Source: a virus
Virus record (IMG/VR): IMGVR_UViG_3300029319_000005
Coordinates: 32,001 to 96,000 of that record
Length of the DNA: 64,000 nt
Direction: 5' to 3' (one strand)
Part shown: piece after piece, positions 12,354 to 15,097 of the stretch
How the letters are laid out: every line of letters begins with the position of its first letter
How positions within the stretch are numbered: position 1 is the first letter of the stretch
Translations under genes and position numbers: made by a program
The notes under the pieces: generated by a model
The model's input: only the letters and a program-made list of their open reading frames with translations
Told to the model about the DNA's origin: nothing
Databases searched by the model: none

Positions 12354-12569
12354 TTAGTTCTTTCGTTTCTTTTCTGCTTTTCTAGCGTTATCTTTTTTGC
12401 GCTTCTTAGCGAGCCTTCTTTTCTTAGATGGTTTTGTAAAATACATTCTTTCTTTGTATTCTTCAACAACTCGCATTTTTTTTGCTTTCTTTATAAACTT
12501 TTTAATCATTCTAGTCACGTTGCCTTTGACTTCTTCTAGCGTGACCTCTACATGTATGGGACTCCCCAT
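12354..12569 (-). CDS. rpsU: Phage-encoded 30S ribosomal protein bS21
   Basis: 71 aa, highly basic; V.V....NVTRMIKKFIKK....VVEEYKERMYFTKPSKKRR matches the bS21 pattern (ALRRFKR...E.R.REFYEKP...R). Confidence 0.85.
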   Translation of the reverse strand: MGSPIHVEVTLEEVKGNVTRMIKKFIKKAKKMRVVEEYKERMYFTKPSKKRRLAKKRKKDNARKAEKKRKN

Positions 12570-12578
12570 TGTTAACTC

Positions 12579-12980
12579 CTAGATTAAATGCTTCCACTTG
12601 CCCTTGGCAAGCCCGACTATTCCATTGATATCCACGCCCTTGTCTCCTGGACTTACGCCAGCCAAAGGACCTTGTCCGTTAGACTCAGGAGCGGCAGGCT
12701 TGGTCCCTTCGAAGATATCAACACCAAACTGCTGTGAAGCGCTTTCATTTAGCCTTTTTATTCTTTCTTGTCTTTGTCTTTCATACTCTTCTTCAGCCAT
12801 CTTTTGTTTCAAATCCTGCGCTTCTGGCTGGCTGCGGCTAGACTCTGTAATCGTATTAGCTGCTAATCCTTGAGCAACTTCCTTAATAATCCCAGAAAGA
12901 ACACCCTCTTCAAAAAGGCATTCTTTAATGCACTCTTTCACTAATGGTTTTAAAATTTGTTTTAGTTCACTTTTTTTCAT
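12579..12980 (-). CDS. Hypothetical head-cluster protein with MKKSELKQIL..LVKE N-terminus
   Basis: ORF track; shared N-terminal motif; LNES/ITES sites. Confidence 0.7.
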   Translation of the reverse strand: MKKSELKQILKPLVKECIKECLFEEGVLSGIIKEVAQGLAANTITESSRSQPEAQDLKQKMAEEEYERQRQERIKRLNESASQQFGVDIFEGTKPAAPESNGQGPLAGVSPGDKGVDINGIVGLAKGKWKHLI

Positions 12981-13222
12981 TATCGATCCATGTGTCTAAA
13001 TTGGAGCGCCAGTTCTTTTACTATCTGACTAGCGGTTTGTTGCAAGAGATCCGGGTCTCCCAATGCATCTTTTAGTCGGTTATGAATGCTAGCAAGATCA
13101 TCATGTCGGACCTTCATAGCGCGGTCATACCCTGCCGCGTCGGCTTTTTTCTTACCGAACATATCAATCTCCTCTAGCTGGTTTATCTCTTCGCTTATTA
13201 TTTCATTAATAGATTCTTTCAT
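12980..13222 (-). CDS. Hypothetical head-cluster protein (80 aa)
   Basis: Translationally coupled (TAATG overlaps at both ends); N-terminus INEIISEEINQLEE. Confidence 0.65.
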   Translation of the reverse strand: MKESINEIISEEINQLEEIDMFGKKKADAAGYDRAMKVRHDDLASIHNRLKDALGDPDLLQQTASQIVKELALQFRHMDR

Positions 13223-13863
13223 TATATGTTGTCTCCCAAGATATCATCTAGAGTTTCGTTGATTATATCTTTTTTAGATTTATCTTTTTGTTCGTTTATA
13301 TATAAGTTCAAATCGGCCACTTTGGGATCGCTCATAGTGGGATTTAGGTAAGCACCGGGGGTAGAAGGTTCCGAAACAATATCGAAACAGATAAGCTGGA
13401 AATCATCCTCCACCATCGTCACTCCGTTGGATTCGCTTACAGAGCCGAGGCCTCTAGAAGAGATCCCCAGTTTTACGCCGGAATTTAATAGCGCTTTTAA
13501 AACGTTACCAGACGGGGTATCGAGAACTTCAATCTTGCCCATAACATCATCACCTTTCCACCACATTTTTGTCACTAAATGTGATGCATTTTTTAAATTG
13601 ATAACACTGTCGTCGGGGTGATCAAGCTCGCCCAATGCTCGTTTCTCACGGATCGCCTTTTGGTAAGCATCTATTTCTCTTTGCAAAGTTTCTTTTTTAT
13701 AAATTCTTCCATTGCCATTTTTTGTGCCTGCTTTCTGGCACACACCTACCAAGTACACAGATCCGTTATCCATGTTTTTAATTTCAGTTTCAGTCAATGT
13801 TTCTACGGCGCAAAGACCATCGGGACATAGCTGAAAATACTCTTGTAAAAGTTTTTTTGCCAT
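13222..13863 (-). CDS. Prohead core protease (T4 gp21-like)
   Basis: KNGNGRIY, ALGELDHP, SHL, LDTPSG, GISSRGLGS and FDIVSEPSTPGA motifs. Confidence 0.95.
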   Translation of the reverse strand: MAKKLLQEYFQLCPDGLCAVETLTETEIKNMDNGSVYLVGVCQKAGTKNGNGRIYKKETLQREIDAYQKAIREKRALGELDHPDDSVINLKNASHLVTKMWWKGDDVMGKIEVLDTPSGNVLKALLNSGVKLGISSRGLGSVSESNGVTMVEDDFQLICFDIVSEPSTPGAYLNPTMSDPKVADLNLYINEQKDKSKKDIINETLDDILGDNI

Positions 13864-13865
13864 AG

Positions 13866-13916
13866 CTATGATCCTTTACAACATCGCCTTACGTCCGGAA
13901 TATTCCTTCTTCTCAT
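13866..13916 (-). CDS. Micro-ORF, 16 aa: MRRRNIPDVRRCCKGS
   Basis: Below the ORF-track cutoff. The ATG overlaps the upstream TGA (ATGA), AAGGAG lies 5 nt upstream, and the stop ends 2 nt before the protease ATG, filling the gap. Confidence 0.6.
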   Translation of the reverse strand: MRRRNIPDVRRCCKGS

Positions 13917-14218
13917 GGCTGCTCCTTCATTCTTTTAGTAATTTCGGCGTGTATTCTAGCGCCAGGGCCTTGCCCAAAAACTTTTCTAAATGCCTCTAGT
14001 CTAACTTGAGGACTTACTTTGTCAGAAGCCAGTATCGCACTCAGTGCTTCAATGTAATCTTCCACTGGCATTCTTCCGCCGGTAGACGCTCCTCTTTTTA
14101 TCTGCTTTAATTGTGAGCTATCTGGCTTCTCTTCCTCGCCCTCTGCTGCCTCCGGGTCTAGGAGATTTTGTACCTGTTCCAAAATAAATTTTTTAAGATT
14201 TTCTTCTGTTAATTTCAT
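13913..14218 (-). CDS. Hypothetical head-cluster protein with MKLTEENLKKFILE N-terminus
   Basis: ORF track; ATGA coupling to both neighbours. Confidence 0.7.
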   Translation of the reverse strand: MKLTEENLKKFILEQVQNLLDPEAAEGEEEKPDSSQLKQIKRGASTGGRMPVEDYIEALSAILASDKVSPQVRLEAFRKVFGQGPGARIHAEITKRMKEQP

Positions 14219-14517
14219 CGTAGTCTATTTTCCAATTTTAAACCACTGTCTCCAAAAACCATATTAAGGATGTAAGAAGTTCCAGAACTCAAGCATCCAA
14301 GCAGCAGTATATTCACAAAATTATATTCAAAACTAAATAGTTCCGTATACTTGTTAATACCGAAAAGAAAAGCGCCAACCCAAAACCCCATACACATGGG
14401 ACATTTAAATAGTTCTCCCATTTTTCCATTTTGTGGCCTTATTAAATTAAATATACTTCCGTAGACAAGTATTTGTGTCATGCCATAGGCACAAAGAATG
14501 AAAATTAGAATATCCAT
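14215..14517 (-). CDS. Small membrane protein with CxxC motif (DUF1360-like)
   Basis: Three hydrophobic segments and LFKCPMCMGFWVG. Start reassigned to ATG 14517 (GCGGAG SD). Confidence 0.65.
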   Translation of the reverse strand: MDILIFILCAYGMTQILVYGSIFNLIRPQNGKMGELFKCPMCMGFWVGAFLFGINKYTELFSFEYNFVNILLLGCLSSGTSYILNMVFGDSGLKLENRLR

Positions 14518-14527
14518 AAAACTCCGC

Positions 14528-15097
14528 CTAATATACGTAATTGGTATACAGACCGTATGGGCGTAGCTCTGGCCGTACCGAACCCTTCTTAGTTGAGTGG
14601 CGTCTTGGGTCAAACTCGCTCGACTCCTCTGGTGTCGGGTCTGTCATTCTCTCTTCGTAGGCTTCCTCTATGTCGTCCTCAAATTCTAGGTAAGGGCGCT
14701 CTTCTTCTATAAAATTTGCAATTGTAAAAAGAGCAAGCTGCGTAGTATTGTAATCTTTTGTTTCTTCAAGCTTTGCTTCTAAAGAGGAATAAACATTTCC
14801 CCCTTGGACAGAATCTCTTTGCACGATTCCTTTGTCAGTCAGATACTTGAACAATCTGTCTGCGGAATGATAAGACTCGTCTGTATACGACTCCTTGGCA
14901 AAAGACACAACCTTGTTTTTGTCAGGCATTACTACAATGTCAATGTCTCGGTGATCAAAAATAATTAAATCTCCACCAAGAGTCTTTCTTACTTTTAACT
15001 CTCTAGTCGCAACAACAGGCTTCTTTTCCTGTTGCACCGGCATCTCCGGAGAAGCCAAAAGGCCCACATCTCTGTTTATAGTAATATTAATTGACAT
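14528..15097 (-). CDS. Hypothetical protein (189 aa)
   Basis: ORF track; coupled between head genes. Confidence 0.7.
   Translation of the reverse strand: MSINITINRDVGLLASPEMPVQQEKKPVVATRELKVRKTLGGDLIIFDHRDIDIVVMPDKNKVVSFAKESYTDESYHSADRLFKYLTDKGIVQRDSVQGGNVYSSLEAKLEETKDYNTTQLALFTIANFIEEERPYLEFEDDIEEAYEERMTDPTPEESSEFDPRRHSTKKGSVRPELRPYGLYTNYVY

What the first reader, a model, noticed from the sequence alone, without database searches (positions are those of the whole stretch)
13866..13916. Hidden 16-aa basic di-cysteine micropeptide gene coupled to the prohead protease
Seen: AAGGAG-cagcc-ATG AGA AGA AGG AAT ATT CCG GAC GTA AGG CGA TGT TGT AAA GGA TCA TAG ct ATG(protease). It has an SD, overlaps the upstream stop as ATGA, and fills the only gap in a tightly coupled operon. 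The product MRRRNIPDVRRCCKGS is Arg-rich with vicinal cysteines. I recall an RRCCKGS-like ending in related uncultured phages but cannot verify it here. Inference: a functional peptide (protease cofactor or inhibitor, DNA-condensing or metal/redox peptide) or a translational coupler for protease synthesis. A loose analogy is the basic Cys-containing adenovirus pVIc protease cofactor.
Basis: partly seen in the sequence, partly recalled or inferred. Interest (0 to 1): 0.7.

Follow-up and report, generated by a model that had tools for sequence, protein, structure and literature searches.

The report
Hidden cysteine-pair micropeptide of phage head module
A 16-codon gene that gene finders miss is real and conserved in hundreds of uncultured marine T4-like phages. 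It most likely encodes a detached cysteine-bearing tail of a small membrane protein in the head-assembly gene cluster, not a cofactor of the neighbouring protease.

Summary
The micro-ORF (window 13916-13866, minus strand) is exactly as described and is a genuine gene. It recurs in essentially all 200 related IMG/VR loci fetched. The 52 distinct copies of its last 11 codons vary almost only at third positions (entropy 0.66/0.61/1.59 bits). Ser and Arg switch codon families, and each copy has its own SD. Of 120 matches to its DNA pattern, 111 lie just upstream of an S77 (T4 gp21-type) protease.

No Pfam, PHROG or NCBIfam family and no paper covers it.

The evidence points to a different partner: the three-helix CxxC membrane protein (DUF1360-like) encoded upstream.
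- Two contigs carry clean in-frame fusions with the peptide as that protein's C-terminal tail.
- In lake-phage contigs the same cassette runs into another membrane protein beside a true DUF1360 gene, with no protease nearby.
- Three cultured outgroup phages lack the peptide, the membrane protein and the protease's N-terminal C-x4-C extension together.

Best reading: a separately translated cytoplasmic Cys-pair subunit of a membrane-bound prohead-assembly factor. In the window its Lys-Gly codons also form the protease's SD. A shared metal site is unproven, and two AlphaFold runs were inconclusive.

The scan had already noted the 22-aa variant in another genome.

The parts
13866..13916 (-). Micropeptide gene: 16 codons plus TAG, ending V-R-R-C-C-K-G-S
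   Evidence: Sequence read. Conserved in 67/80 loci by regex and in the missed loci by mismatch search. Codon-position entropy is 0.66/0.61/1.59 bits. It is the single copy in the 147-kb genome (E 1.8e-10).
13922..13927 (-). Shine-Dalgarno AAGGAG, 5 nt before the micro-ORF ATG
   Evidence: An SD-like GGAG/GAGG/AGGA stands 6-10 nt before the ATG in the copies listed.
13872..13877 (-). AAAGGA inside the Lys-Gly codons, which serves as the SD for the protease (8 nt before its ATG)
   Evidence: GGA Gly codons dominate in 2-nt-gap loci and GGT/GGC in hairpin-type loci. The dual-coding reading is an inference.
13222..13863 (-). T4 gp21-type prohead protease with a clade-specific N-terminal extension (L-C-x4-C, then L-T-E)
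   Evidence: Pfam PF03420 E 4.7e-32. PDB 5JBL E 1.4e-20, aligned over residues 35-176 only. The N-terminal Cys pair and LTE are invariant or nearly so in 38 sequences.
13913..14218 (-). 101-aa protein with an M-K-L-T-E..L-K-K-F-I-L-E type N-terminus (capsid-targeting-like), inserted between the membrane protein and the micro-ORF
   Evidence: L040, L056 and L069 have the same arrangement. Proteins with this motif also sit between the micro-ORF and the protease in other loci.
14215..14517 (-). DUF1360-like three-helix membrane protein with C-P-M-C at the cytoplasmic start of helix 2, the proposed partner of the peptide
   Evidence: Pfam PF07098, 24.3 bits against a cut-off of 21. Present in all 14 loci inspected. 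Natural fusions with the peptide are P0074/L327 and P0016/L328. AF2 predicts three helices at pLDDT 85-96.
14528..15097 (-). Conserved 180-190-aa protein that always precedes the membrane protein (module context)
   Evidence: Homologous ORFs in L003, L006, L017, L037, L041, L045, L061 and L074. Genes of 182-185 aa occupy the same slot in L327, L333 and L337.

Best explanation
The micro-ORF is a real, separately translated gene for a 16-aa basic peptide; relatives run to 16-29 aa. Its conserved part is [basic]-[basic]-[W/R]-x-[L/I]-[Q/P]-[P/E]-V-R-x-C-[C/K]-x-G-[S/C]. It belongs to the prohead-assembly module of a large uncultured marine T4-like phage clade. I read it as a detached cytoplasmic tail or small subunit of the DUF1360-like three-helix inner-membrane protein encoded just upstream. 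By topology, that protein's C-terminus and its CxxC motif are on the same, Lys/Arg-rich and therefore cytoplasmic, side. The peptide's two cysteines can thus meet the CxxC pair. The likeliest chemistry is a shared Cys4 metal (Zn) site, which would make a membrane-bound platform used in prohead initiation. The protease zymogen, whose clade-specific N-terminal C-x4-C extension lies before a conserved L-T-E site, may also be held there. In the window's compact architecture the gene has a second, cis role: its Lys-Gly codons form the protease's SD, and its stop lies 2 nt from the protease ATG, so the two are translationally coupled. Shown: coding status, conservation, synteny, fusions and phyletic pattern. 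Inferred: physical binding, metal chemistry and the role in assembly.
For: Coding status. Fifty-two distinct 36-nt cores have V, R, C and G codons fixed at positions 1-2 and near-saturated position 3. Ser alternates between TCN and AGY, and Arg between AGR and CGN. Each copy has an SD. The window-type region has no RNA structure (z about 0) and no Rfam hit. Link to the head module. 111 of 120 IMG/VR pattern hits have an S77 protease downstream. Loci L327, L333 and L337 show the same module order. Link to the membrane protein. (a) The DUF1360-like gene is present in all 14 loci inspected, often overlapping the micro-ORF start. (b) A profile search of 1.84 billion proteins found two clean natural fusions, P0074 and P0016. 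In both, the peptide replaces the membrane protein's short tail right after helix 3. Both were verified on DNA under table 11, and the peptide part has no SD or separate start. (c) In four lake-metagenome contigs the same micro-ORF plus hairpin cassette reads in frame into a DUF5658 membrane protein. A Pfam-positive DUF1360 gene with a CxxC motif lies two genes away, and no S77 protease is within 3 kb. (d) Pelagibacter phage HTVC008M, cyanophage P-RSM6 and Flavobacterium phage immuto lack the peptide, the DUF1360-like gene and the protease's Cys extension together. Two-Cys requirement. The second Cys moves (C-C-x-G-S versus C-x-x-G-C) but the count stays at two. One tandem form carries one Cys per repeat.
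Against: No direct evidence exists for translation, binding or metal. AF2 of the natural fusion places the membrane helices confidently but leaves the peptide tail at pLDDT 52-68, and I could not read Cys-Cys distances. The Cys arrangement of the peptide does not co-vary with the CxxC motif of the membrane protein or with the protease motif. The phyletic co-occurrence rests on one clade against three outgroups, so it could be simple co-inheritance. A third apparent fusion (P0063) looks frameshifted. Fusions in metagenome assemblies can be errors, because the two genes often overlap out of frame. CC and C-x3-C are not classical zinc-knuckle spacings. In the window and in L040, L056 and L069, another gene separates the peptide from the membrane protein.
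Confidence: 0.55

Rival explanations
1. Trans-acting partner of the prohead protease. The peptide's Cys pair joins the protease's N-terminal C-x4-C extension by metal or disulfide and acts as an inhibitor, activator or tether until autocleavage at the conserved L-T-E site.
For: The peptide lies 2-50 nt upstream of the protease in most loci. All proteases of the clade carry L-C-x4-C followed by L-T-E, which matches T4's L/I-x-E cleavage rule (PMC9026906). Outgroup proteases lack both the extension and the peptide. How gp21 is activated is an open question (PMC9026906).
Against: About a fifth of loci have other genes between the peptide and the protease. The lake-phage cassette has no protease nearby. 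No natural peptide-protease fusion was found; the apparent ones are TAG-read-as-Q artefacts. AF2 of a natural read-through chain gave peptide pLDDT below 30. This reading is compatible with the best explanation as a third component of one complex.
Confidence: 0.17
2. Mainly a cis-acting translated uORF. It acts as a translational coupler or a ribosome-arrest peptide that sets the expression of the next head gene.
For: Conservation is strongest in the last 8-10 residues up to the stop, while the N-terminus varies in length. The stop is nearly always followed by C, and the junction T-R-R-C-T-A-T-G is kept whichever gene follows. The Lys-Gly codons double as an SD. Extended forms that read through the hairpin end at the protease start, with gaps of -4 to +10 nt.
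Against: Coupling alone does not require an invariant R, C and G with free third positions. The hairpin-type loci have 30-46-nt gaps and a separate SD. About 15% of copies have lost the stop. As a fused C-terminal tail of a membrane protein the sequence is kept without any uORF role.
Confidence: 0.15
3. A packaged internal head peptide that neutralises or condenses DNA, or slides on it as pVIc does.
For: Net charge is about +5 in 16 residues with an R-R-C motif. The gene lies among core or scaffold-type genes. pVIc is an 11-aa basic Cys peptide (PMC4740752).
Against: It has no capsid-targeting-type N-terminus. The I-P-[E/D] site is not conserved; K and P variants occur, and the Trp-type lacks it. 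Fusions put it on membrane proteins. T4-type processing precedes DNA entry (PMC9026906).
Confidence: 0.08
4. A chance ORF in an intergenic spacer whose conservation reflects an RNA or DNA element.
For: It is very short, and a conserved hairpin follows it in many relatives.
Against: The three-periodic substitution pattern, the Ser/Arg codon-family switches and the SD in each copy argue against this. The window type has no hairpin and no significant fold, and there is no Rfam hit.
Confidence: 0.02

Closest known systems
Small proteins that act as subunits or regulators of larger membrane proteins (bacterial AcrZ, KdpF, CydX, MgrB type; from general knowledge)
   Same: It is a gene of under 50 codons next to its presumed membrane partner, it is missed by gene finders, and it occurs both split and fused.
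   Different: It has no transmembrane helix of its own. It is basic and soluble, with a conserved Cys pair. It is phage-encoded and sits in a head-assembly module. Binding has not been shown.
Adenovirus pVIc, the 11-aa protease cofactor and DNA 'sled' (PMC4740752, PMC4246237)
   Same: It is a very short basic viral peptide with an Arg cluster next to Cys, encoded beside or linked to a capsid maturation protease.
   Different: pVIc is cut out of precursor pVI and forms a disulfide to Cys104 of a cysteine protease. It works on packaged DNA. Here the peptide is translated on its own, the protease is a serine protease acting before DNA entry, and the fusion evidence points to a membrane protein.
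Membrane-bound initiation of T4 prohead assembly and release on gp21 cleavage (PMC9026906)
   Same: It lies between the portal and protease genes. A membrane protein is in the module, and the protease has a conserved L-x-E site after its N-terminal extension.
   Different: T4 has no DUF1360-like gene, no micropeptide and no Cys extension on gp21 (T4 sequence from memory). No homology to T4 assembly factors was found.
Regulatory leader or arrest peptides (TnaC, SecM, SpeFL; from general knowledge)
   Same: It is a short translated ORF before a gene, conserved at its C-terminal end, with a weak stop context and a hairpin just after the stop in many copies.
   Different: The downstream gene varies, the stop is dispensable, and the same sequence works as the C-terminal tail of a membrane protein.

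Membership tests
Protein-coding gene (versus spacer or RNA element) | Substitutions concentrated at synonymous sites; own ribosome-binding site | tested here: met
   Entropy by codon position is 0.66/0.61/1.59 bits over 52 distinct copies, with Ser TCN/AGY and Arg AGR/CGN switches. Each listed copy has an SD.
pVIc-type protease cofactor | Peptide released from a larger precursor by the protease itself | tested here: not met
   It has its own SD and ATG. The candidate I-P-E site is not conserved.
pVIc-type protease cofactor | Binds and activates the protease through a specific Cys | tested here: inconclusive
   AF2 of the natural read-through chain P0001 gave peptide pLDDT below 30.
Cis-acting leader or arrest peptide | Fixed position before one regulated gene, with the function tied to its own termination or stall site | tested here: not met
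   The downstream gene varies. The stop is lost in about 15% of copies. The sequence is also kept as a fused protein tail.
T4 capsid-targeted internal proteins | N-terminal capsid-targeting sequence ending in L/I-x-E | tested here: not met
   No M-K-I-T-K..I-I-K-E-E type N-terminus. I-P-E varies to I-P-K, I-P-P and R-P-K, and is absent in the Trp-type.
Cys4 metal site shared with the DUF1360-like protein | Two Cys pairs on the same side of the membrane, brought together and binding a metal | tested here: inconclusive
   The same-side position follows from the three-helix model and the charge distribution. The tail has pLDDT 52-68 and no coordinates were readable. Metal binding is not testable here.
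Pfam DUF1360 (the neighbour gene) | Score over the curated cut-off | tested here: met
   The window protein scores 24.3 bits against a cut-off of 21, but only over profile positions 52-74. Seven of 15 relatives match at E up to 0.01. The lake-phage neighbour is listed as PF07098.
Peptidase_S77 (the downstream gene) | Family score, and His and Ser at the catalytic positions | tested here: met
   Pfam E 4.7e-32 and 5JBL E 1.4e-20. The query has His (D-H-P) and Ser (S-S-R-G) where the crystallised chain has Ala. That these are the catalytic residues is from memory of T4 gp21.
Any described small-protein family | Match in Pfam, PHROGs, NCBIfam or Rfam, or in the papers searched | tested here: not met
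   No hits. No paper contains the motif. The ESM Atlas gave no usable hit.

The most novel reading that the evidence does not exclude
The peptide, the CxxC membrane protein and the Cys-bearing N-terminal propeptide of the protease form a metal-bridged tether. This tether holds the nascent prohead core or protease zymogen on the inner membrane. Autocleavage at the conserved L-T-E site then cuts the tether, coupling protease activation to release of the prohead from the membrane. That would be a concrete mechanism for two steps that remain unexplained in T4-type assembly.
Probability: 0.15. Interest if true: 0.85.

Novelty: new variant of a known kind. Interest (0 to 1): 0.62.

Why it matters
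This is a conserved gene in the best-studied type of phage head-assembly module, present in hundreds of abundant uncultured marine phages. Yet it is absent from the protein-family libraries I searched and from most called protein sets, because it is shorter than gene-caller limits. It flags a clade-specific three-part cysteine system (membrane protein, micropeptide, protease extension). That system could make two open questions testable: how T4-type proheads are anchored to and released from the membrane, and how the protease zymogen is controlled. It also shows that some 'fusion proteins' in large protein collections are artefacts of reading TAG as Gln.

Tried and rejected
- DNA and tblastn searches of cultured phages (INPHARED) with the region, a 21-aa variant and the membrane protein found nothing close. 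This clade has no cultured member in that collection.
- Word-based protein searches at three length ranges found nothing.
- The genome-contig scan with the 14-base pattern returned scattered hits across unrelated bacteria, which look like chance. Without the script machine I could not filter them.
- I rejected the idea that the peptide is a protease substrate (I-P-E) because the site is not conserved.
- I looked by eye, not statistically, for co-variation between the peptide's Cys spacing and the neighbours' motifs, and saw none.
- I rejected RNA structure as the explanation for the window type.
- Six apparent fusions to the protease or to core proteins (P0010, P0022, P0024, P0029, P0036, P0079) have Gln at the stop position. 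P0024 equals L143 read through TAG, so these are artefacts.
- Two AlphaFold2 runs gave no confident placement of the peptide.
- The script machine was lost. A paired co-evolution analysis, a full tally over all 200 loci and Cys-distance measurements were therefore not done.

Full report
**Observation**

On the minus strand the window reads as follows.
- AAGGAG at 13927-13922, then 5 nt, then ATG at 13916.
- Sixteen sense codons ending V-R-R-C-C-K-G-S, then TAG at 13868-13866.
- CT, then the ATG at 13863 of a 213-aa protein.

The micro-ORF's ATG overlaps the TGA of the preceding 101-aa ORF as ATGA. The downstream protein is a T4 gp21-type prohead protease (Pfam PF03420 E 4.7e-32; PDB 5JBL E 1.4e-20 over residues 35-176).

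The window is part of a 147-kb IMG/VR virus record, 81% complete. On this strand it carries a T4-type large terminase, portal and gp23 capsid genes. The 49-nt interval is the only sizeable gap in the gene run 15917-12579.

**Is it a gene?**

A protein-guided scan of IMG/VR with the protease returned 334 relatives, of which 80 loci were kept.
- Printing the 110 nt before each protease showed the micro-ORF again and again, with different codons.
- A regular expression found it in 67 of 80 loci on the protease strand.
- The loci it missed carry variants (N or A for K, T for V), found by a mismatch search and by reading the ORFs.

So it is essentially universal in this protease clade.

Over 52 distinct copies of the last 11 codons, mean entropy is 0.66, 0.61 and 1.59 bits at codon positions 1, 2 and 3.
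- The Val, Arg, Cys and Gly codons are fixed at positions 1-2 and nearly saturated at position 3.
- Ser alternates between TCN and AGY, and Arg between AGR and CGN.
- Each copy listed has a GGAG/GAGG/AGGA-type SD 6-10 nt before its ATG.

- In 111 of these, an S77 protease follows on the same strand, mostly 2-50 nt away.
- All but one of the rest are cut by a contig end.

The window-type region has no significant RNA fold (z about 0) and no Rfam match. The phage's own genome holds exactly one copy. I take protein-level purifying selection as shown.

**The family**

An alignment of 54 variants gives an invariant R, C and G and a nearly invariant V.

There are two N-terminal types:
- an Arg-rich 16-mer, as in the window;
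- a Trp-containing 20-29-mer (..W-T-x-K-W-M-L-Q-P..).

There are two Cys arrangements: C-C-[KSTNA]-G-[SAR] and C-K-[KS]-G-C. One database member is a tandem of both N-terminal types with one Cys in each half. The count of two cysteines is kept while the position of the second is not.

There are three architectures.
1. Stop, then CT, then ATG or GTG of the next gene. This is the window's form.
2. Stop followed after 5-6 nt by a GC-rich hairpin, then a spacer with a separate SD.
3. Stop lost, the frame reading through the hairpin (giving ..R-V-A-P-A..) and ending at the next start.

The hairpin is real. It has a 5-bp stem, and three of its pairs show compensatory changes, including G-C to A-U in 8 of 19 sequences.

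In the first architecture the Lys-Gly codons are mostly AAR-GGA, an SD 8 nt before the next ATG. Hairpin-type loci use GGT or GGC. The same bases therefore seem to serve the peptide and the downstream ribosome-binding site.

**Context**

The module order is: portal, a roughly 275-aa gene, a 180-190-aa gene, a roughly 100-aa membrane protein, the micro-ORF, the protease. Further on comes a bS21-like gene.

Variable proteins of 50-250 aa can sit on either side of the micro-ORF. Their N-termini read M-K-[IL]-T-K-x-Q-L-K-Q-I-I-K-E-E, which resembles T4 capsid-targeting sequences ending in an I-x-E cleavage site (PMC9026906). The window and L040, L056 and L069 have one such protein between the membrane protein and the micro-ORF.

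The membrane protein matches Pfam DUF1360 weakly (24.3 bits, cut-off 21). It always carries C-x-x-C at the start of its second helix.

Every protease of the clade begins with ..L-L-x-E-Y-x-x-L-C-x-x-G-x-C.., followed by L-T-E. This N-terminal extension lies outside the part that aligns to the T4 structure.

**Outgroups**

The closest cultured phages by protease similarity are under 60% identical.
- Pelagibacter phage HTVC008M, cyanophage P-RSM6 and Flavobacterium phage immuto have proteases that start M-K-L-I-T-E.. or similar, with no Cys pair.
- They have no membrane protein of this kind upstream and no micro-ORF.
- No cultured phage has a close homologue of the membrane protein.

The three Cys-pair elements thus appear together in one clade. 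This fits a functional link, but it could also be plain co-inheritance.

**Which partner?**

Word-based searches of 5.8 billion proteins found nothing. A profile search of 1.84 billion representatives found 72 matches, most of them 29-58-aa extended stand-alone forms. Reading the longer ones gave three results.

- *Read-through artefacts.* Six 'fusions' to the protease or to core proteins have Gln exactly at the stop position. One equals locus L143 read through TAG. They are artefacts of calling genes with TAG as Gln.
- *Clean fusions.* In P0074 (116 aa) and P0016 (123 aa) the peptide follows helix 3 of the DUF1360-like protein directly, replacing its short tail (alignment). Both translate from their contigs under table 11. 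Both lie in the standard module just before the protease, and the peptide part has no SD or start context of its own. They come from different samples and carry different peptide types. A third case (P0063) has an aberrant third helix and is probably frameshifted.
- *A different context.* P0072 occurs on four lake-metagenome contigs. It has the micro-ORF with a strong SD and the hairpin, reading in frame into a DUF5658 membrane protein. A Pfam-positive DUF1360 gene with a C-x-x-C motif and the same ..M-V-G-D tail lies two genes away, and no S77 protease is within 3 kb.

The peptide therefore travels with DUF1360-type membrane proteins even when the protease is absent. It can also be physically part of them.

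**Mechanism**

In the AF2 model of the natural fusion the three helices are confident (pLDDT 85-96) and the peptide tail is not (52-68).

The first loop and the tail are Lys/Arg-rich and the second loop is acidic. By the positive-inside rule, the CxxC motif and the C-terminus both face the cytoplasm. The basic peptide would also be there.

Four thiols on the cytoplasmic face suggest a shared metal site. I could not test this. The spacings CC and C-x3-C are unusual for zinc knuckles.

A fold of a natural in-frame read-through chain joining peptide and protease (L006, TAA read as Gly) left the peptide at pLDDT below 30. A protease interaction is therefore neither supported nor excluded.

T4 proheads assemble on the membrane and detach on gp21 cleavage, and how gp21 is activated is unknown (PMC9026906). 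The conserved L-T-E after the protease's Cys pair makes a cleavable tether an attractive but speculative extension.

**Rivals**

- A pure cis role (coupling or arrest peptide) fits the stop context and the dual-use SD. It does not fit the loss of the stop in about 15% of copies, the variable downstream gene, or the fused forms.
- A packaged DNA-binding peptide fits the charge. It does not fit the lack of a targeting sequence or the membrane fusions.
- The pVIc analogy (PMC4740752) holds only at the level of 'short basic Cys peptide near a maturation protease'.

**Novelty and verdict**

No Pfam, PHROG, NCBIfam or Rfam family covers the peptide. No paper in the library contains the motif, and the ESM Atlas has no neighbour for it. 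The standard 16-22-aa forms are below the length of called proteins.

An earlier first-stage note of this scan saw the 22-aa variant next to a CxxC membrane protein in another genome, and my loci confirm that arrangement.

I rate the gene as real (about 0.97). I rate the membrane-protein partnership as the best-supported function (about 0.55-0.6). The metal-bridge chemistry is plausible but untested.

Noticed in passing
window 12354-12569 (-): A 71-aa ORF between the protease and the capsid gene resembles ribosomal protein bS21 (Pfam E 2.9e-4, below the cut-off). Genes flagged PF01165 sit at the same place in L327, L328 and L337.
   Followed up: partly
window 13913-14218 (-), 12579-12980 (-); L012, L034, L060, L094 and others: Variable 50-250-aa proteins around the micro-ORF share an N-terminus of the type M-K-[IL]-T-K-x-Q-L-K-Q-I-I-K-E-E. 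This resembles T4 capsid-targeting sequences ending in an I-x-E protease site. They look like a swappable set of prohead-core or ejected proteins.
   Followed up: partly
L006 2971-3000, L045 2960-2995, L330 1120-1145 and many loci: A conserved GC-rich hairpin (5-bp stem, 5-nt loop) starts 5-6 nt after the micro-ORF stop, with compensatory G-C to A-U changes. It is only sometimes followed by a T-run. It is absent in the window. Its role (terminator, RNA end protection or something else) is unknown.
   Followed up: partly
window 13789-13863 (-), protease residues 1-25: The proteases of this clade have an N-terminal extension with an invariant C-x4-C and a following L-T-E. This matches the T4 L/I-x-E cleavage rule, so the Cys pair is probably on a removable propeptide.
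   Followed up: partly
P0010, P0022, P0024, P0029, P0036, P0079 (protein library): These predicted 'fusion' proteins have Gln exactly where relatives have the micro-ORF's TAG stop. They were evidently called with TAG read as Gln, which is a source of false fusions in large protein collections.
   Followed up: yes
L017 2876-3001, L020 2828-2997, L029: In some loci a further small basic Gly-rich protein of 41-56 aa (..G-H-G-P-G-K..P-x-S-W-W..) sits between the micro-ORF and the protease.
   Followed up: no
L335 2461-2592 (JGI 3300073283): A high-GC contig carries a tandem of both peptide types in one 43-aa ORF, with one Cys each. It lies among other tiny ORFs beside a sugar epimerase gene, and no head genes are in view. 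It is unclear whether this is a true relative in a new context.
   Followed up: partly
window 14528-15097 (-): A 180-190-aa protein of unknown function precedes the membrane protein in all loci inspected and has no Pfam or PHROG match. It is another fixed, unnamed member of the module.
   Followed up: no
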